Origin: a virus
Lineage: Duplodnaviria; Caudoviricetes
Direction: 5' to 3' (one strand)
Length of the DNA stretch: 53,747 nucleotides
IMG/VR virus record: IMGVR_UViG_3300028392_000082
Span: 1-53,747 of that record
Part shown: positions 548-20,743 of the stretch, in pieces
Position numbering within the stretch: the stretch's first letter is position 1
Layout: each line of letters begins with the position of its first letter
Translations under genes and position numbers: made by a program
Notes under the pieces: generated by a model
Told to the model about the DNA's origin: nothing
Databases searched by the model: none
Seen by the model: the letters and a program-made list of their open reading frames with translations, nothing else

Positions 548-883
548 AAGCTGTTGTTCTTGACTTATTTTTTATTTTTTGTTAATTAACTTTGATTCTA
601 ATTTGTCTAGTCGAGAATCCATCATGCTGTATATAGCTTGTTCTGATTCTGCTCGACTTCTGTGAACTTGTTCTATCTCTAAGGATAGTACTCTATTTGT
701 TTGAGCGTCTATTTCAAAGACGTCTCTATTGAGGTCTTCGATTCTTTTTTCTAACTTAATGGTCTTAACGAAGGCAATAACAGCAACTATCGCTAACGCG
801 ATAACCACCACTAGGCTCATCCCTAAAACGAATGATAGTGTTTCCATATTTTATTTCTCCTATATGTCAAAGAACAACAGCTT
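548..883. repeat. Long-range inverted repeat bracketing ORF 572-847
   Basis: AAGCTGTTGTTCTTGAC (548-564) is the reverse complement of GTCAAAGAACAACAGCTT (866-883) apart from a 1-nt bulge. Confidence 0.85.
572..847 (-). CDS. Single-TM coiled-coil membrane protein
   Basis: N-terminal hydrophobic helix followed by a coiled-coil-like tail. Confidence 0.75.
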   Translation of the reverse strand: METLSFVLGMSLVVVIALAIVAVIAFVKTIKLEKRIEDLNRDVFEIDAQTNRVLSLEIEQVHRSRAESEQAIYSMMDSRLDKLESKLINKK

Positions 884-884
884 G

Positions 885-1039
885 CTGTAGGGGAAGGATT
901 CGAACCTTCATGCAGCGATTCGATAAAAGACACATTGCTCGAGCTTGTGGTCAATCCATATCTTTTATCTATTTCGTTCTCTGCGCCCACGAGACGAGTG
1001 GGTGTGTATGCCGTGGCGTACGCCTTTCACCACCCTACA
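885..1039 (-). ncRNA. Oversized tRNA-like RNA (155 nt; GUC at the anticodon position, G73, hairpin in D-loop, 76-nt variable arm)
   Basis: Acceptor TGTAGGG/CCCTACA+G73; U8G9; D-stem GTG/CAC; anticodon arm CCCAC-TCGTCTC-GTGGG; T-arm GAAGG-TTCGAAT-CCTTC. Confidence 0.8.
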
Positions 1040-1044
1040 GTATA

Positions 1045-1293
1045 TTAATAGATTCCGTCCTCTTCGTCTATTTTAAAATCCAATTTATTCTGATCGATTC
1101 TAGCTTGTTCGGCTTCTTTGTACCACCTAATCCAAGTTAGAGATACATCGATAGGAGCCAATACCCAAGCCATTACTACAACCATAACAGCGTCTAACTC
1201 AGGAGAATTGTATTCTGTTCCTGTTTTTCTATATCTCTTGTTTAGTTGATAGAAACAATAGATAATGCAAATAAAATAATAACCTAATAACAT
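1045..1293 (-). CDS. Small two-TM membrane protein
   Basis: Two hydrophobic segments; fills the gap between two RNA genes. Confidence 0.65.
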   Translation of the reverse strand: MLLGYYFICIIYCFYQLNKRYRKTGTEYNSPELDAVMVVVMAWVLAPIDVSLTWIRWYKEAEQARIDQNKLDFKIDEEDGIY

Positions 1294-1310
1294 ATATTTA
1301 ATTTTTAAAG

Positions 1311-1381
1311 TTGCCCCTCAAGGATTCGAACCTCAACAAACTGTACCAAAAACAGTCGTACTACCGTTATACTAAAGGGCA
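1311..1381 (-). tRNA. tRNA-Gln(UUG)
   Basis: TGCCCTT acceptor, anticodon arm ACTGT-TTTTGGT-ACAGT, GGTTCGAATCC T-arm; CCA not encoded. Confidence 0.95.
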
Positions 1382-1386
1382 TAATA

Positions 1387-1487
1387 GTGTAGTAGGAGCT
1401 AGCATCCTTGTGGTTACTACACGTTTTATCCACTTTGGTAAAAGGCCTACTCTGTGCGCCCTGATCGCGGGAAGGGGAGTAAACGTC
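1387..1487 (-). ncRNA. Structured inter-tRNA element (multibranch plus hairpin)
   Basis: ACGTTT/AAACGT, ACTC/GAGT and CCCT/AGGG nested stems, then GTGTAGT/ACTACAC closing AGGA-TGCTAGC-TCCT. Confidence 0.45.
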
Positions 1488-1492
1488 TTTTG

Positions 1493-1579
1493 CGGAAAGA
1501 CAGGGATTCGAACCCCAGATACAGTTTCCCGTATTCTTGTTTTCAAGACAAGTGCATTAAGCCTCTCTGCCATCTTTCC
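1493..1579 (-). tRNA. tRNA-Ser(UGA)
   Basis: GGAAAGA/TCTTTCC acceptor, G73, CTTGT-CTTGAAA-ACAAG anticodon arm, long variable arm, TTCGAAT T-loop. Confidence 0.95.
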
Positions 1580-1584
1580 GTTAC

Positions 1585-1676
1585 GGTGGCGACAATACTT
1601 AGACTAGGGCTGCAGACCCTTGGTATTGCGTTTCTTCAACCACCAACCACCGGCTTAAGACGTCAATGCCAATGGT
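1585..1676 (-). ncRNA. Structured two-hairpin element upstream of tRNA-Ser
   Basis: ACCAUUGGC/GCCGGUGGU (G-U pairs valid only on minus strand); GGUGGU/GCCACC, GCAAUAC/GUAUUGU, AGGG/CCCU. Confidence 0.5.
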
Positions 1677-1782
1677 CCTGTTTATTTTATATAAGACGTT
1701 TACAGCTAACGTCTTTGTCGGTTTAAAATTATCGCAATATTAGTACTATGAATACTAATTTTTGACTTTTTTAAACCAATAA

Positions 1783-1901
1783 GGTGCCGGTGGAAGTATT
1801 TGTTTAACTTCACGGAGTCCTTTTCGGTCACTCCACCACTTCGAATCAGGTACGTCTCAATGCTACTCGTCAGTATACATTGTTTATTCCGCCACACCGG
1901 C
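1783..1901 (-). ncRNA. Type II tRNA-like RNA with D-loop hairpin insertion and non-canonical T-loop
   Basis: GCCGGTG/CACCGGC+A73+CC; GTGGCGGAAT start; variable arm GGAGT/ACTCC; T-stem GAAGT/ACTTC with 9-nt loop TAAACAAAT; weak anticodon arm around TCG. Confidence 0.7.
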
Positions 1902-1910
1902 ATATTAAGT

Positions 1911-2048
1911 TTAGGAAAGGCGAGGATGGTTCAGTGGACAACTCCTTTTATGATTGGCATTACTAATGATGGTTTAAACTCCGATATAGTCGGCCAATGC
2001 TTTTTGAGCGCCACCAACAGGCTAACCTATATCATTCCCCAATCAACC
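1911..2048 (-). ncRNA. Structured ncRNA motif, tandem copy 1
   Basis: GGTTGATTGG...TTAGTAATGCCAATCATAAAAGGAG-TTGTCCAC...CCTTTCCTAA; same scaffold as 2057-2162. Confidence 0.75.
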
Positions 2049-2651: not shown

Positions 2652-2666
2652 AACCTTTATTTTTTG

Positions 2667-3069
2667 TGGAGCATATGGGACTCGAACCCATGTCTCCGTA
2701 ATGAACAATAATACCAACGTCTCACACGCTTAGATCTGTTTTTATTCTGATCAGTAAGGGTCGTATGGTTTTTGGTCCTTACGATATCCACCACTTGGTT
2801 TTATGACTACCAAGAAACTCCCAGAAGGAGCAGAGCTATAATACTGAGACTATAGCGGGGTTTTCACTTCTTTTTAAAGTCCCATGAGTGATACGGGATG
2901 CGACTAAGCAGCGTATGCGTACTCGTCAGCACCGATGAAACTCATAAGAGAATCAAAGGTCATAGTAGATAATTCTACAGTTATTGTTTCGTAAGGTTTT
3001 AAGGACTTATCTTACTTTGTCCGCGTGTGGTATTACCTCCGAATTACGGATCAATTCCAAGGATGCCCC
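2667..3069 (-). ncRNA. ssrA: tmRNA; tag (A)VELSTMTFDSLMSFIGADEYAYAA*
   Basis: GGGGCAT/ATGCTCC-A acceptor with G3-U70; GGTTCGAGTCC T-arm; ATAACT before the resume codon; tag ORF 2978-2904 ending YAA. Confidence 0.93.
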
Positions 3070-16529: not shown

Positions 16530-17441
16530 TTAAAATCCACGTTCTAAGTCTCTCATATCTCCCCAAACTCTTTGGGAATCAATGGCTTTCATATCGATAT
16601 CCACCACTCTTTTTTCTATTTGAGCATCGGCACCAACGTTTATAAAATAAGCACCTGGTTTTCCCTTTGTTTTAAATGCTTCGAACGCTTTTGCATCGTA
16701 AGTAGCCGTGGTAGGAAATGGAGGTAATTGATCTGGTCTTACTGGTTTTAAAAATGGTATAGTTGCGCTTTCTATAATTGCTCTACCGATTTCACCTTTC
16801 TTTAAATTTCTCGCAACAGCAATACCGTAAGCTGCAGCGTTTGGCCAACCGATTTGTAAACCTCTAGTCATAGTGCCTGTTGATACTGCGCACCAAAATT
16901 CTGGTGGCTCAGGTAAACTATTTGCAAAATTGACAATTCCTGCTGTTACGCCTGGCATACCTGATAATCCGAAAGTTAGGTACTGCGCTCCGTACTTCTC
17001 TGCCCACTTCTTTGCATAAATGTTAATAGTTGGCATCGCAGGAGTTTTAACGAATCTTAAGTCAGCTCCATACGCTTTTACGACTGCTTGGTGTTTTGAT
17101 ACCTCTTTAGAAGCTGGTGCAAAGAACACCGATTTCTTACCGTACAGCTGTGCTAAATTAGCGATTGCTTCTGGAGCGTGACCGACTCTTGGAGCTACGT
17201 AAACGAAAGTATCTTTAGGACACTCAGCAATTACCTTCTCTGCGGCAAATGCTTTGAATCCTGCTAAAGATAGATCGCATCTGATAATAAATTTATCTTC
17301 GAATGGCTCAACAACTACTTTAGGCATTTTCGATACAAAATCAGTACCGTACATGTCTAAATAATATTGTTTCGCTTGTTCAACTGTCATCCCGGCTGGG
17401 ATGTCTTTGTTGGACCTATCTTCTGTTACTTCATATTGCAT
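16530..17441 (-). CDS. PLP-dependent fold-type II enzyme (PALP / cysteine synthase-like)
   Basis: IRCDLSLAGFK (PLP lysine), AVSTGTMTRGL phosphate loop, YDAKAF. Confidence 0.75.
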   Translation of the reverse strand: MQYEVTEDRSNKDIPAGMTVEQAKQYYLDMYGTDFVSKMPKVVVEPFEDKFIIRCDLSLAGFKAFAAEKVIAECPKDTFVYVAPRVGHAPEAIANLAQLYGKKSVFFAPASKEVSKHQAVVKAYGADLRFVKTPAMPTINIYAKKWAEKYGAQYLTFGLSGMPGVTAGIVNFANSLPEPPEFWCAVSTGTMTRGLQIGWPNAAAYGIAVARNLKKGEIGRAIIESATIPFLKPVRPDQLPPFPTTATYDAKAFEAFKTKGKPGAYFINVGADAQIEKRVVDIDMKAIDSQRVWGDMRDLERGF

Positions 17442-19117: not shown

Positions 19118-20743
19118 TTACATTCCCATACCCATACCCATCATTGGGTCTTGAGTTTTTTCTTCTTTGTCTTTCTTTTCGAATACAACTGATTCTGTGG
19201 TTAGAATAGTTCCTGCTACAGAAGCTGCGTTTCTAAGCGCTGTGATAACGACTTTGGCTGGATCAATAATACCTGCGTCTAAAGCATTAACAATCTTGTG
19301 ATTCTTGGCATCGTACACTTCACCTTCGTTAGGAATTTTAGTGTACCAATCTTGAATTCCTGCATTTTCTAAGATCTTCTTGAATGGACTTTGAATCGCT
19401 TTCTGAACAATTCCATAAGCAATAGCATCGTGGATAGTCTCTTCTGGATGATGTTGAATAGACGCTTGGAATAAAGCTGAACCTCCGCCTGCTACTATAC
19501 CATCAGCTAACGCTGCTTTAGTTGCATATAAAGCGTCTTCTACTCTATCTTTCTTTTCTTTAATTTCAATATCAGAATTACCGCCTACGCTAATGATTGC
19601 AACACCTCCGACTAGTTTACCTAATCTCTCTTGTAATTTCTCTTTCTCATAGAATGAAGTAGATTTATCTATTTGATCTTTAATCTCTTCCGCTCTTGCT
19701 TGTAACTTAACTTCTTCGCCTTTACCGTCAATAATGGTGGTTTCATCTTTAGATACTGTTACTAATCTAGCTTTACCCAATACTTGAGAAACTTGTTGAG
19801 TAGTTAATTTATCTAATTTGTGACCTTTGTCTTTAGATAGCAATTCTGCGCCTGTTAAGATCGCAATATCTTCTAAGATCAAAGTTTTTCTTTCGCCAAA
19901 ATCTGGTGCTTTAACTGCGCAAACTTGAACGATGCCTCTCATTTTATTTACAATCAAAGTAGCTAATGCTTCGTCTCCGATATCTTCTGCAACAATTAAC
20001 AACGGTTTATTCTCAGAATTTACTTTCGCTAATACTTGCAATAACTCTTGGGCTGTTGAAATTCTACCATCAAATAAGAAGATGTAAGGATCTTCCAATA
20101 CAGCTTGCATACTCGTATTGTTAGTTACGAAGTAAGGAGATTTGTATCCGCGATCGAATTGCATACCTTCAACAACCTCTAAACTGGTTTCACCTGATTT
20201 AGATTCTTCGATTGTAATAACTCCTTCGCGACCAACTTTCTCTACTGCAGAAGCAATCAAGTTACCAATTTCTGGATCGTTGTTGCCTGAAATTGTAGCG
20301 ACTTGTTTAATTTGTTCTTCTGATTCGATATCAATAGCGATTGTCTTAATATATTCGATAACCTGTTTAACTGTTTTATCGATTGCATTTTTAATCTCTA
20401 CTGCGTTAGAACCTTGACGAATTTCTTTTAAACCTTCTCTTACCATTTCTGTTGCCAATAAAGTGGAAGTAGTTGTACCGTCACCAGCTTCGATAGCCGA
20501 CTTAATACTAACTTGCTTTACTAACTGAGCTCCTAAATCTTCGATGTCGTCTTCTAGCTTATGAAAAGCTTTTGCGACAGTTACGCCGTCTTTAGTTACT
20601 TTAACTTCCCCGTTTTGTTCTCTAATCAAAACAGTTCTACCGCCGGGTCCCAATGTTGATGACACCGCTTGGTTTAGTTTTTCTATACCGGAAAGTAACT
20701 TCTCTTTAAGTTCTGTTCCGTTTATGTTTTTTGTTGTACTCAT
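19118..20743 (-). CDS. groL: Chaperonin GroEL
   Basis: TLGPGG, TKDGVTVA, AGDGTTT, GMQFDRGY; GMGM tail. Confidence 0.97.
   Translation of the reverse strand: MSTTKNINGTELKEKLLSGIEKLNQAVSSTLGPGGRTVLIREQNGEVKVTKDGVTVAKAFHKLEDDIEDLGAQLVKQVSIKSAIEAGDGTTTSTLLATEMVREGLKEIRQGSNAVEIKNAIDKTVKQVIEYIKTIAIDIESEEQIKQVATISGNNDPEIGNLIASAVEKVGREGVITIEESKSGETSLEVVEGMQFDRGYKSPYFVTNNTSMQAVLEDPYIFLFDGRISTAQELLQVLAKVNSENKPLLIVAEDIGDEALATLIVNKMRGIVQVCAVKAPDFGERKTLILEDIAILTGAELLSKDKGHKLDKLTTQQVSQVLGKARLVTVSKDETTIIDGKGEEVKLQARAEEIKDQIDKSTSFYEKEKLQERLGKLVGGVAIISVGGNSDIEIKEKKDRVEDALYATKAALADGIVAGGGSALFQASIQHHPEETIHDAIAYGIVQKAIQSPFKKILENAGIQDWYTKIPNEGEVYDAKNHKIVNALDAGIIDPAKVVITALRNAASVAGTILTTESVVFEKKDKEEKTQDPMMGMGMGM

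What the first reader, a model, noticed from the sequence alone, without database searches (positions are those of the whole stretch)
885..1039. 155-nt giant tRNA-like RNA with GUC anticodon, G73 and 76-nt variable arm
Seen in sequence: a complete cloverleaf core with a 7-bp acceptor, U8/G9, a 3-bp D-stem, a perfect 5-bp anticodon stem and a canonical TTCGAAT T-loop. A palindromic hairpin GGCGTACGCC is inserted in the D-loop. The anticodon loop is TC-GTC-TC (C33 and pyrimidine 37, both non-canonical). The 76-nt variable region folds as one long stem (GCAG/CTGC, CGA/TCG, GATAAAAGATAT/GTGTCTTTTATC). Intact pairing throughout argues against simple decay. Established: G73 with GUC are Asp identity elements, while G73 with a long variable arm is the SerRS signature. 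Inference: a new tRNA-mimic class, such as a decoy for anticodon nucleases, an aaRS/ribosome-binding RNA, or a mischarged recoding tRNA.
Basis: partly seen in the sequence, partly recalled or inferred. Interest (0 to 1): 0.85.

Follow-up and report, generated by a model that had tools for sequence, protein, structure and literature searches.

The report
Phage giant tRNA-Asp-like RNA family
This is a real, widespread and so far undescribed family of phage RNAs built like an oversized transfer RNA: it keeps the marks that the aspartate-charging enzyme reads, lacks the marks a working decoder needs, and carries a long extra arm that looks made for pairing two copies together.

Summary
Window 885-1039 (minus strand) is a 155-nt cloverleaf with a hairpin in the D loop and a 76-nt variable arm. 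ARAGORN and Rfam miss it.

It belongs to a large family in uncultivated phages.

The genes lie inside phage tRNA arrays at tRNA spacing, and C74 is always encoded. All three complete phage genomes checked also carry a normal tRNA-Asp, so this RNA is an extra.

G34-U35-C36 (81/81), G73 (82/82) and C38 (75/81), the strong AspRS determinants, are kept. Position 33 is free, position 37 is a pyrimidine (79/81), and the T stem is of the weakest EF-Tu-binding kind.

The arm apex is a perfect palindrome of 8 nt or more in 144/148 members, in 28 different sequences. That points to homodimers.

Best reading (about 0.5): a non-decoding, AspRS-directed, dimerising tRNA-like RNA. Its function is untested. 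It is a new variant of tRNA-like RNA.

The parts
885..1039 (-). Whole 155-nt tRNA-like RNA, position 1 at 1039 and G73 at 885. C74 is encoded at 884.
   Evidence: Model R1 matches 885-1039(-) at 160.7 bits. Sequence read. C74 is present in 147 of 147 distinct members.
1033..1039 (-). Acceptor stem, 5' strand UGUAGGG. It pairs with 886-892 (CCCUACA). U1-A72 and G2-C71 are conserved.
   Evidence: 6 of 7 pairs covary. U1:A72 in 76/77 rows and G2:C71 in 77/77.
1004..1032 (-). U8, G9 and the D arm: stem GUG (1030-1028) with CAC (1006-1004), and a 21-nt loop (1027-1007) with the GG at 1012-1011.
   Evidence: Pairs 10:25 and 11:24 covary. U8, G9, A14 and the GG are present in 78/78 rows. The D arm is most like phage tRNA-Leu.
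1015..1024 (-). Palindromic insert GGCGUACGCC in the D loop.
   Evidence: Read. 117 of 148 members have an insert of 9 nt or more, and 53 of those hold a perfect palindrome of 8 nt or more. Duplex -19.8 against hairpin -2.6 kcal/mol.
986..1002 (-). Anticodon-like arm: stem CCCAC/GUGGG and loop UCGUCUC (997-991), with GUC at 995-993.
   Evidence: All 5 pairs covary. GUC in 81/81; position 33 is U45/C24/A11/G1; position 37 is U68/C11/A2; position 38 is C75/A5/U1.
910..985 (-). 76-nt variable arm. Helices GCAG/CUGC (984-981 with 915-912), CGA/UCG (976-974 with 918-916) and an 11-bp helix (969-959 with 932-922). Internal loop AAUA/GAA (973-970 and 921-919).
   Evidence: Length. Helices 4-6 pair in 98.8-99.7% of cells, and 13 of 18 pairs changed on both sides.
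947..957 (-). Conserved unpaired stretch GGAUUGACCAC on the 5' side of the arm apex (family consensus GGGUWGACCAC).
   Evidence: At least 90% conserved in alignment A2, whose search pattern did not touch the arm.
937..944 (-). Apex palindrome GCUCGAGC, the candidate site of pairing between two copies.
   Evidence: A perfect palindrome of 8 nt or more sits at this place in 144/148 distinct members, in 28 different sequences, against 8.5% of shuffles. It forms no stable hairpin (0 kcal/mol), while the duplex is -14.1 kcal/mol.
893..909 (-). T arm GAAGG-UUCGAAU-CCUUC, with G49-C65, A50-U64 and A51-U63.
   Evidence: T-loop positions GGUUCRA are invariant, but the search pattern fixed them. 3 of 5 stem pairs covary. 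The T stem belongs to the weakest EF-Tu-binding class.
1310..1579 (-). Context: tRNA-Gln(UUG) at 1310-1381 and tRNA-Ser(UGA) at 1492-1579, upstream on the same strand.
   Evidence: ARAGORN and Rfam tRNA at 56.9 and 54.6 bits.
2664..3069 (-). Context: phage tmRNA with tag ADEYAYAA, same strand.
   Evidence: ARAGORN and Rfam tmRNA at 61.1 bits.

Best explanation
SHOWN. The element is one member of a large, conserved family of phage-encoded tRNA-like RNAs.
- It sits on a class-II tRNA scaffold with a tRNA-Leu-like D arm.
- It is encoded inside tRNA arrays with the same spacing and the same encoded C74 as the real tRNAs there.
- It is carried in addition to a normal tRNA-Asp.

INFERRED.
- It is cut out by RNase P and the 3' processing enzymes, and it gets CCA like its neighbours.
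- It presents the full set of strong aspartate determinants (G73, G34-U35-C36, C38) to the host aspartyl-tRNA synthetase. It is therefore bound by that enzyme and probably aspartylated.
- It is not a decoder. Position 33 is unconstrained, position 37 is kept as a pyrimidine, and the T stem (G49-C65 with A/U51-U/A63) is of the kind that makes EF-Tu reject Asp-tRNA(Asn).
- The long arm carries a conserved internal loop, a conserved unpaired GGGUWGACCAC and a self-complementary apex. The apex pairs two copies into a symmetric dimer, giving a two-headed tRNA mimic. Such a dimer would suit a dimeric partner, and AspRS is recalled to be one.

What the phage gains from this is not known. Options are control or capture of AspRS, an Asp carrier kept off the ribosome, or protection of tRNA-Asp.
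For: Family and structure:
- 8 homologues at 148-164 bits against 34 bits or less for ordinary tRNAs in 81 sources.
- 91 matches in 92 sources.
- 99.3% of cells paired, 29/38 pairs with double changes, 0/500 shuffles.

Place in tRNA arrays:
- A same-strand tRNA ends 10 nt or less upstream in 37 of 155 distinct contexts, and one starts 10 nt or less downstream in 19.
- C74 is encoded in 147/147 elements and in 646/655 neighbouring tRNAs.
- U at -1 in 125/147.

An extra, not a replacement:
- 3 of 3 complete element-bearing phage genomes have tRNAs for all 20 amino acids, including one 75-nt tRNA-Asp(GUC).
- 13 canonical tRNA-Asp genes lie in the 119 loci of the first scan.

Aspartate determinants, measured on 83 distinct rows (82 found with a pattern that leaves these positions free, plus the window):
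- GUC 81/81, G73 82/82, C38 75/81.
- These are the five strong Asp determinants named in PMC9976931 (passages read).

Not built for decoding:
- Position 33 is U in only 45/81, and position 37 is a pyrimidine in 79/81. Canonical phage tRNA-Asp loops are YUGUCAC in 13/13.
- T-stem score: mean +1.03 kcal/mol (n=122 of 147 scored), the weakest class. Phage tRNA-Asp scores -0.70. Values are from Table 2 of PMC3239215.
- G49-C65 with A51-U63 are the pairs that make EF-Tu reject Asp-tRNA(Asn) (PMC1904265, passages read).

Dimer:
- Perfect palindrome of 8 nt or more at the apex in 144/148 members, in 28 different sequences with 8 different self-complementary central tetramers, against 8.5% of shuffles.
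- Hairpins 0 to -2.6 kcal/mol against duplexes -14 to -24 kcal/mol.
- Palindromic pairing is a known homodimer motif (PMC12990946, passages read).

Presence in RNA libraries:
- Contigs of 4 of 4 lake or freshwater RNA libraries cover the element with the arm in place.
Against: - No aminoacylation, processing or dimerisation was measured.
- The RNA-library evidence is from contigs. They show neither ends nor strand, and DNA may be present in such libraries.
- Bacterial tRNA-Asp has a strictly conserved G1-C72 that helps place the 3' end in AspRS (PMC9976931). The family has U1-A72 in 76/77 rows.
- G10, recalled as a minor Asp element, is not conserved: G40/A24/U14.
- Class II synthetases are recalled to approach tRNA from the variable-loop side, so a 76-nt arm might clash with AspRS.
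- About 25 of 147 T stems could not be scored, mostly because of a bulged U.
- The three 93-94-nt forms (L175, L086, L119; two distinct sequences) lack the long arm and the conserved GACCAC stretch, so the dimer cannot be essential to every member.
- A crippled anticodon loop lowers decoding but does not prove that it is absent.
- No phage protein partner turned up. The commonest neighbour is a 75-aa membrane protein, in 57/203 loci. No class-II Asp/Asn/Lys synthetase core and no GatB was found in 5 complete genomes.
Confidence: 0.5

Rival explanations
1. Nuclease-resistant spare decoder. It is a working tRNA-Asp whose anticodon loop (positions 33 and 37) and bulky arms make it insensitive to a host anticodon nuclease that destroys ordinary tRNA-Asp. 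It keeps GAY decoding going during infection.
For: - The changes sit exactly at loop positions that AspRS does not read, while the AspRS determinants are kept.
- The element comes in addition to a host-like tRNA-Asp.
Against: - U33 is lost in 36/81 rows, with all four bases allowed, and position 37 is a pyrimidine in 79/81. Both are recalled to be near-universal needs of decoders.
- The T stem is 1.7 kcal/mol weaker than that of phage tRNA-Asp. With the weakly binding Asp this predicts poor EF-Tu binding.
- It does not explain the conserved internal loop, the GGGUWGACCAC stretch or the palindromic apex.
Confidence: 0.15
2. Decoy or inhibitor. The RNA is not meant to be charged. It mimics tRNA-Asp to soak up or block a host factor that reads the Y-G-U-C loop, such as a colicin-E5-like anticodon nuclease, another tRNA-targeting defence protein or a tRNA-modifying enzyme. 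The dimer adds avidity.
For: - GUC is invariant, while U33 and A37 are absent in most members.
- Colicin E5 is listed among the nucleases that phage tRNAs may have to face (PMC10264068). That it needs only Y-G-U is recalled.
- Self-complementary apex.
- It is an extra beside the normal tRNA-Asp.
Against: - A loop-directed decoy would not need G73 (82/82), C74 (147/147), U1-A72 or G2-C71 to be invariant. Nor would it need the intact elbow: U8, A14, the GG and the T loop.
- Position 33 is A or G in 12/81 rows, so Y33 is not kept throughout.
- No nuclease partner is known for these hosts.
Confidence: 0.2
3. Serine-accepting missense tRNA of the allo-tRNA kind. SerRS charges it through G73, G2-C71 and the long arm, and it puts Ser (or a derivative) at Asp codons.
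For: - G73 in 82/82, G2-C71 in 77/77, C11-G24 in 26/78, and a long arm.
- The nearest upstream tRNA is tRNA-Ser in 42 of 70 contexts.
- Allo-tRNAs with GUC anticodons are common in metagenomes (PMC5389517, section 14 read).
Against: - SerRS does not read the anticodon (recalled). An invariant GUC plus C38 would then have to serve decoding, and N33 with Y37 speak against that.
- The D arm is of Leu type, not Ser type: mean identity 0.60 to tRNA-Leu against 0.40 to tRNA-Ser.
- The acceptor/T branch is 7/5, not 8/4 or 9/3.
Confidence: 0.07
4. A tRNA body as a handle only. The arm is the working part (a protein-binding or self-assembling RNA). The tRNA-like body serves only for excision from the array and for stability, as in tRNA-scaffolded RNAs.
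For: - The arm holds strongly conserved unpaired motifs and the palindrome.
- The element lies in arrays at tRNA spacing.
- T4 has unexplained stable RNAs (rnaC, rnaD) at the end of its tRNA cluster. rnaC carries a tRNA-like T arm.
Against: - A mere handle would not keep GUC (81/81), C38 and G73 invariant while the anticodon stem around them covaries freely.
- The three 93-94-nt members (L175, L086, L119; two distinct sequences) keep the body and the loop but lack the long arm.
Confidence: 0.08

Closest known systems
Canonical bacterial or phage tRNA-Asp(GUC)
   Same: G73, G34-U35-C36, C38, G2-C71, 7/5 acceptor/T branch, U8, A14, G18-G19, a T loop of the UUCRA type, and an encoded C74.
   Different: - Class-II variable arm of 24 to about 90 nt instead of a short loop.
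- Often a hairpin in the D loop.
- U1-A72 instead of G1-C72.
- Position 33 free and position 37 a pyrimidine, instead of U33 and A37.
- A/U51-U/A63 instead of G51-C63 (13 of 16 scored phage tRNA-Asp have C50-G64 with G51-C63, and all 16 have G51-C63).
- Not called by Rfam. ARAGORN did not call it in the window or in the two long-form loci checked, L180 and L192.
Class II tRNA-Leu of the same phages
   Same: The D arm (UGGYGRAAUUGGYAGAC-like) is up to 95% identical, with mean identity 0.60 against 0.46 or less for every other class. 3-bp D stem and long variable arm. tRNA-Leu is the commonest downstream neighbour, in 17 of 33 contexts. T4 tRNA-Leu is the best T4 match to the model, at 38.4 bits.
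   Different: G73 instead of A73 (A73 in 77/77 phage tRNA-Leu). Asp-type anticodon loop. A far longer arm with its own conserved motifs.
Allo-tRNAs (Mukai et al. 2017, PMC5389517)
   Same: tRNAs found in metagenomes with a long variable arm. GUC is among their predominant anticodons, and some occur in phages (abstract passage and section 14 read).
   Different: Allo-tRNAs are defined by an 8/4 or 9/3 acceptor/T branch. This family is 7/5. Their anticodons are diverse, while this family has GUC only. They are read as missense or suppressor decoders, and this loop is not decoder-like.
Asp-tRNA(Asn), the transamidation intermediate that EF-Tu rejects (Roy et al. 2007, PMC1904265)
   Same: Would carry Asp on a body with G49-C65 and A51-U63. 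It also has U1-A72, which the amidotransferase reads (PMC9976931; PMC1904265).
   Different: - The anticodon is GUC, not GUU.
- The tRNA-Asn genes of these phages mostly have G1-C72 (16/18).
- The enlarged D loop may be an antideterminant for GatCAB (recalled).
- 4 of the 5 putative host MAGs have AsnRS.
Homo-oligomeric natural RNAs (OLE, ROOL, GOLLD, HYER1)
   Same: A self-complementary sequence as a likely contact between copies. Palindromic pairing and kissing loops are the listed homodimer motifs (PMC12990946). GOLLD, ROOL and OLE form homo-oligomers (PMC12286853, start of the abstract seen in the listing). That GOLLD and ROOL lie in phages near tRNAs is recalled.
   Different: No Rfam match to any of them. 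The RNA is much smaller, with a full tRNA body. Oligomerisation is only inferred here.
T4 species 1 and species 2 RNAs (rnaC, rnaD)
   Same: Stable RNAs of 139 and 119 nt with unknown function, annotated at the end of the T4 tRNA cluster. rnaC ends in a tRNA-like T arm, CCGGG-UUCGAAU-CCCGG.
   Different: Not homologous. Model R1 gives 12.1 bits on part of rnaC, against 120-165 bits for family members. No GUC loop was seen.

Membership tests
tRNA (Rfam RF00005 / ARAGORN tRNA) | Reaches the family's gathering score or is called by a tRNA finder | tested here: not met
   No RF00005 match on 885-1039 at gathering score or at E<=10, and no ARAGORN call. Only the 93-94-nt relatives are called, as tRNA-Asp(gtc).
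tRNA (Rfam RF00005 / ARAGORN tRNA) | Cloverleaf with a 7-bp acceptor and 5-bp T stem, plus the core U8, A14, G18-G19 and a UUCRA T loop | tested here: met
   U8, G9, A14 and the GG are present in 78/78 rows, and all helices covary.
Elongator (decoding) tRNA-Asp | U33 and a purine at 37 in a 7-nt anticodon loop | tested here: not met
   Window loop is UCGUCUC. In the family, position 33 is U45/C24/A11/G1 and position 37 is U68/C11/A2. That these are universal needs of decoders is recalled.
Elongator (decoding) tRNA-Asp | AspRS strong determinants G73, G34, U35, C36 and C38 | tested here: met
   82/82, 81/81, 81/81, 81/81 and 75/81. The list of determinants comes from PMC9976931.
Elongator (decoding) tRNA-Asp | G1-C72, strictly conserved in bacterial tRNA-Asp | tested here: not met
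   U1-A72 in 76/77 rows. PMC9976931.
Elongator (decoding) tRNA-Asp | A tight EF-Tu-binding T stem that makes up for the weak binding of Asp | tested here: not met
   Mean +1.03 kcal/mol against -0.70 for phage tRNA-Asp, by the three-pair model. This is a prediction, not a measurement.
Elongator (decoding) tRNA-Asp | Aspartylation and use on the ribosome | not testable with these tools
   Needs biochemistry.
Class II tRNA-Leu | Discriminator A73 and a Leu anticodon | tested here: not met
   G73 in 82/82 and GUC in 81/81. Phage tRNA-Leu has A73 in 77/77.
Class II tRNA-Leu | Class-II D arm and a long variable arm | tested here: met
   D-arm identity to tRNA-Leu has mean 0.60 and maximum 0.95. The arm helices covary.
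Allo-tRNA | 8/4 or 9/3 acceptor/T branch | tested here: not met
   7 acceptor pairs and 5 T-stem pairs are supported by covariation. Definition from PMC5389517.
tmRNA | Rfam tmRNA match, G3-U70, a tag reading frame and pseudoknots | tested here: not met
   No tmRNA match on the element. Pair 3:70 is U-A in 70/77 rows. The contig has a separate tmRNA at 2664-3069.
Homo-oligomeric RNAs (palindromic-pairing dimers) | A self-complementary contact kept as a property while its sequence changes | tested here: met
   144/148 members, 28 different palindromes, against 8.5% of shuffles.
Homo-oligomeric RNAs (palindromic-pairing dimers) | Oligomer observed in solution or by cryo-EM | not testable with these tools
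   Only cofold energies: dimer minus two monomers is -14.6 kcal/mol for the full length and -16.1 for the apex alone.
T4 species 1 RNA (rnaC) | Sequence and structure homology | tested here: not met
   R1 gives 12.1 bits on L354:1910-2001.

The most novel reading that the evidence does not exclude
The RNA is a symmetric two-headed tRNA mimic. Two copies join through the palindromic apex of the arm, and in many members a second palindrome in the D loop could build larger assemblies.

The dimer would then occupy both tRNA sites of the dimeric AspRS and be aspartylated. U1-A72, N33, Y37 and a tRNA-Asn-type T stem would keep it away from EF-Tu and the ribosome.

The phage would thereby hold a private pool of activated aspartate, or a switch on AspRS. 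In hosts with GatCAB the Asp might be amidated to Asn on a GUC-bearing RNA. GatB was found in 5 of the 5 MAGs that hold such contigs.

This would be the first natural homodimeric tRNA-like RNA and the first phage RNA aimed at an aminoacyl-tRNA synthetase.
Probability: 0.2. Interest if true: 0.92.

Novelty: new variant of a known kind. Interest (0 to 1): 0.8.

Why it matters
Phage tRNA genes are usually read as codon supplements or as spares against tRNA-cutting defences. Here a common gene in the tRNA arrays of freshwater phages has the shape and the charging marks of tRNA-Asp, but it has been selected against the marks of a decoder, and it carries a large conserved arm with a self-pairing tip.

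- It would add a new class to the short list of non-decoding tRNA-like RNAs: tmRNA, YrlA, viral tRNA-like structures and the cell-wall tRNA-Gly species.
- It gives a compact RNA of about 155 nt for testing natural RNA dimerisation.
- It points to AspRS or another reader of the GUC loop as a target of phage action.
- Standard tRNA and Rfam scans miss it, so tRNA counts for such phages are incomplete.

Tried and rejected
- **Intron or spliced arm.** No joint removing the arm or the D-loop hairpin appears in the contigs of four RNA libraries. Contigs of two runs span the whole element unspliced: X3 record 15 (875-1171) and X4 record 24 (885-1043). The arm itself carries conserved motifs and covariation. 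Rejected, with the caveat that contigs drop rare forms.
- **Decayed tRNA.** Rejected by covariation.
- **Replacement for a missing tRNA-Asp.** Rejected, because 3 of 3 complete genomes hold a normal tRNA-Asp.
- **Phage-encoded partner enzyme.**
  - No class-II Asp/Asn/Lys synthetase core (PF00152) and no GatB (PF02934) in 5 complete element-bearing genomes.
  - Clustering of ORFs within 4 kb gave no enzyme. The top cluster is a 75-aa membrane protein, in 57/203 loci.
- **Cultured phages.** blastn of the 2.8-kb region hit only ordinary tRNA genes. blastn of the 155 nt found nothing in 50,697 records at E<=0.01. BLAST is weak for such RNAs, so absence is not shown.
- **Known RNA families.** Nothing in Rfam 15. 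T4 rnaC and rnaD are not related.
- **Literature.** Searches listed no paper that describes such a family; I read the listings only. PMC5737381 has no 'tRNA-like' passage. The allo-tRNA supplements (PMC5389517) could hold related sequences.
- **U1-A72 as a tRNA-Asn mark.** Weakened, because the tRNA-Asn genes of these phages mostly have G1-C72 (16/18).
- **Depth in RNA libraries.** Not used as a measure of expression, following the tool's warning.
Full report
**1. What is there**

The window is a complete IMG/VR virus record of 53,747 nt, and CheckV estimates it as 34% of a genome. All long ORFs lie on the minus strand. PHROGs matches include DNA polymerase, ribonucleotide reductase, DnaB-like helicase, exonuclease, UvsX-like recombinase, SSB, GroEL, tail sheath and tail fibre. 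This is a large tailed phage with a contractile tail.

Between about 880 and 3070 the minus strand holds an RNA gene cluster:
- tmRNA at 2664-3069
- tRNA-Ser(UGA) at 1492-1579
- tRNA-Gln(UUG) at 1310-1381

The element of the finding follows at 1039-885.

Coordinates are in the parts list. One correction concerns the D stem. It is G10-U11-G12 with C23-A24-C25, followed by A26. Covariation shows this.

The variable region has exactly 76 nt. It folds into helices of 4, 3 and 11 bp, separated by an AAUA/GAA internal loop. The apex holds an unpaired GGAUUGACCAC and the palindrome GCUCGAGC. ARAGORN and Rfam do not report the element.

**2. It is a family with strong covariation**

I fetched loci around relatives of a neighbouring 460-aa protein. 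Seven of the 80 held a homologue at 75-93% identity.

Pattern 1 covers the D arm and anticodon region. These gave 80 distinct elements of 93-172 nt. RNAalifold on them predicted 38 pairs, 28 with compensatory change.

I built covariance model R1 from this alignment. In 81 sources it scores 8 elements at 148-164 bits, and the next best hit, an ordinary tRNA, at 34 bits.

Pattern 1 fixed the anticodon loop, so I ran a second pattern that touches only the arm and the T loop. R1 confirmed 84 of the 85, and L203 was a chance match.

On the resulting 83 distinct rows:
- 99.3% of 3,064 cells pair
- 29 of 38 pairs changed on both sides
- 0 of 500 shuffles reach any of the five measures
- slid controls pair in 42-51% of cells

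This alignment was fitted to the model, which favours pairing. The independent MAFFT/RNAalifold result agrees.

**3. Where the family occurs**

- No match among 50,697 GenBank phage records by blastn.
- In one genome per prokaryote species, the pattern hit 26 places. R1 confirmed 6 of them.
- All 6 are contigs of 529-3,588 nt in Bacteroidota MAGs: Algoriphagus, Flectobacillus (two), Cytophagales, Bacteroidia and 'Bacteroidetes'. These are probably phage fragments that were binned with their hosts.
- The RNA libraries that hold parts of the stretch are labelled lake, river or freshwater.

The hosts are therefore probably freshwater Bacteroidota. This is an inference from binning only.

**4. It is treated like a tRNA gene**

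- In the 119 loci of the first scan, 86 hold at least one tRNA and 23 hold a tmRNA.
- Among 155 distinct contexts, a same-strand tRNA ends 10 nt or less before the element in 37, and one starts 10 nt or less after it in 19. A tRNA or tmRNA lies within 300 nt on either side in 84.
- The nearest upstream tRNA is tRNA-Ser in 42 of 70 cases. The nearest downstream tRNA is tRNA-Leu in 17 of 33.
- C74 follows G73 in 147 of 147 distinct elements, and CCA is encoded in only 10.
- The ordinary tRNAs of the same loci show the same habit: C74 in 646 of 655, CCA in 70.
- U stands at -1 in 125 of 147.

That the RNA is matured by RNase P, 3' trimming and the CCA-adding enzyme is an inference from these facts.

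Contigs from four RNA libraries cover the element. Two of them span it whole with the arm in place, and no joint removes the arm. Contigs cannot show ends or strand, and DNA may be present in such libraries.

One contig (run X2) joins 881 to 1046 with 12 other letters in between. So a close relative lacks the whole element between the same two flanking genes.

**5. It is an extra, derived from a class II tRNA**

Three complete phage genomes that carry the element were scanned (256, 238 and 321 kb; CheckV 100%). Each has 24-27 tRNA genes covering all 20 amino acids, including one ordinary 75-nt tRNA-Asp(GUC).

The D arm of members without the hairpin is most like the tRNA-Leu of these phages. 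Mean identity is 0.60 and the maximum is 0.95. Every other class has a mean of 0.46 or less, with Ser at 0.40 and Asp at 0.42. In T4, R1 scores tRNA-Leu best.

The 93-94-nt members (L175, L086, L119) have an ordinary class-II arm of 24 nt, and ARAGORN calls them tRNA-Asp. The family thus runs from a plain class-II 'tRNA-Asp' to giants of 176 nt.

**6. What is conserved and what is not**

These counts come from the set whose search pattern left the positions free:

| Position | Count |
|---|---|
| G34-U35-C36 | 81/81 |
| G73 | 82/82 |
| C38 | 75/81 |
| U1-A72 | 76/77 |
| G2-C71 | 77/77 |
| Position 33 | U 45, C 24, A 11, G 1 |
| Position 37 | U 68, C 11, A 2 |

The 13 ordinary tRNA-Asp genes in these loci have the loop YUGUCAC.

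According to the review PMC9976931 (passages read), aspartate identity rests on five strong determinants: G73, G34, U35, C36 and C38. The anticodon ones are strongest in bacteria. The family keeps exactly these, and it frees or alters the two loop positions a decoder needs.

The T stem points the same way. With the three-pair values of PMC3239215 (Table 2 read), the ordinary phage tRNAs fall in the expected order. Asp (-0.70) and Glu (-0.62) are tightest, and Gln, Trp and Tyr are weakest. The element scores +1.03, the weakest of all (122 of 147 scored).

Its usual pairs are G49-C65 with A51-U63 or U51-A63. PMC1904265 (passages read) shows that G49-C65 and A51-U63 are what make EF-Tu reject Asp-tRNA(Asn), and that Asp binds EF-Tu weakly. 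An Asp-charged element should therefore be a poor EF-Tu ligand. This is a prediction, not a measurement.

**7. The arm and the palindromes**

Alignment A2 was found without any constraint on the arm. In it, the stretch GGGUUGACCAC and the AA of the GAA strand of the internal loop are 90-100% conserved. The loop RAUA/GAA recalls the bulged-G (loop E) motif AGUA/GAA. That resemblance is from memory and was not tested.

The apex was not noticed before. A perfect palindrome of 8 nt or more sits there in 144 of 148 distinct members. There are 28 different sequences, with 8 different self-complementary central tetramers. Shuffled apex regions reach this in 8.5% of cases.

A hairpin needs only its stem to be self-complementary, and a 4-nt loop would be so by chance once in 16. 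As hairpins these sequences are worth 0 to -2.6 kcal/mol. As duplexes between two copies they are worth -14 to -24 kcal/mol.

The simplest reading is pairing between two copies. Palindromic pairing is a listed homodimer motif, for example in HYER1 (PMC12990946).

Of the 117 members with a D-loop insert of 9 nt or more, 53 hold a second perfect palindrome of 8 nt or more, as the window does. Two different self-pairing sites on one RNA could build chains or closed assemblies. This is speculation.

**8. Mechanism**

My best reading is a non-decoding, tRNA-shaped RNA aimed at AspRS. It would be cut out of the array like a tRNA, bound and probably charged by the host enzyme, kept off EF-Tu and the ribosome, and joined in pairs through the arm. 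I put this at about 0.5.

Points against this reading:
- U1-A72 replaces the G1-C72 that bacterial AspRS uses to place the acceptor end.
- The arm may clash with AspRS.
- The smallest members lack the long arm.
- Nothing was measured.

Rivals are a nuclease-proof spare decoder (0.15), a decoy for a GUC-reading nuclease or enzyme (0.2), a SerRS-charged missense tRNA (0.07) and a mere processing handle for the arm (0.08).

The idea that GatCAB amidates the Asp rests on U1-A72. GatB is present in 5 of the 5 MAGs that hold such contigs. Against it:
- 4 of those 5 MAGs have AsnRS.
- The tRNA-Asn genes of these phages mostly have G1-C72.
- No phage GatB was found.

**9. Comparison and novelty**

The family fails the membership tests for ordinary tRNA-Asp, tRNA-Leu, allo-tRNA (8/4 or 9/3 branch), tmRNA and T4 rnaC. 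It shares features with each.

It is best filed as a new variant of tRNA-like RNA. I found no description of it in four literature searches (listings only) or in Rfam 15.

Noticed in passing
window 863-875 (-), and after the element in L085, L124, L130, L146, L097 and L184: The motif GTTCTTTGACATA lies just before the ribosome-binding site of the next gene (ORF 572-847). It recurs downstream of the element in several related loci. Rfam gives a weak DUF2693-RNA match at 774-875(-), 19.6 bits with E 0.82. It may be a phage promoter or leader.
   Followed up: no
window 1783-1917 (-), and repeats near 1911-1966 and 2056-2112: A weak manA-RNA-like match: 15.9 bits against a gathering score of 55.2, E 0.19. 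Two similar units of about 55 nt were seen by eye. RNA-library contigs cover 1671-2214. A 2026 preprint reports that manA RNA forms 60-mer cages (abstract read).
   Followed up: partly
window 881-1046: One contig of RNA library X2 joins 881 to 1046 with 12 other letters in place of the element. A close relative therefore lacks the whole gene between the same two flanking ORFs.
   Followed up: no
L159:1310-1405 (+): A second odd tRNA-like gene of 94 nt, which ARAGORN calls tRNA-Leu. It has an acceptor stem, a Leu-type D arm, a T arm and A73, but no normal anticodon arm. A GAGAGA/UCUCUC hairpin takes that place.
   Followed up: partly
window 2664-3069 (-), and 23 of the 119 loci: Phage-encoded tmRNA (tag ADEYAYAA in the window). 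It is frequent in the same regions as the element.
   Followed up: no
Loci L082-L285: Nearly all tRNA genes of these phages encode C74 but not CCA: C74 in 646/655, CCA in 70/655, and CAA is the commonest next triplet.
   Followed up: partly
window 1382-1491 and 1580-1700 (-): Spacers of about 110 nt between and upstream of the tRNA genes contain hairpins, seen by eye. They are not called by Rfam and were not compared across relatives.
   Followed up: no
window 19118-20743 (-) and 16530-17441 (-): A phage GroEL-type chaperonin (PHROG 5725, E 1e-147) and a protein matching the 'threonine dehydratase' PHROG 7093 (E 2e-47).
   Followed up: no
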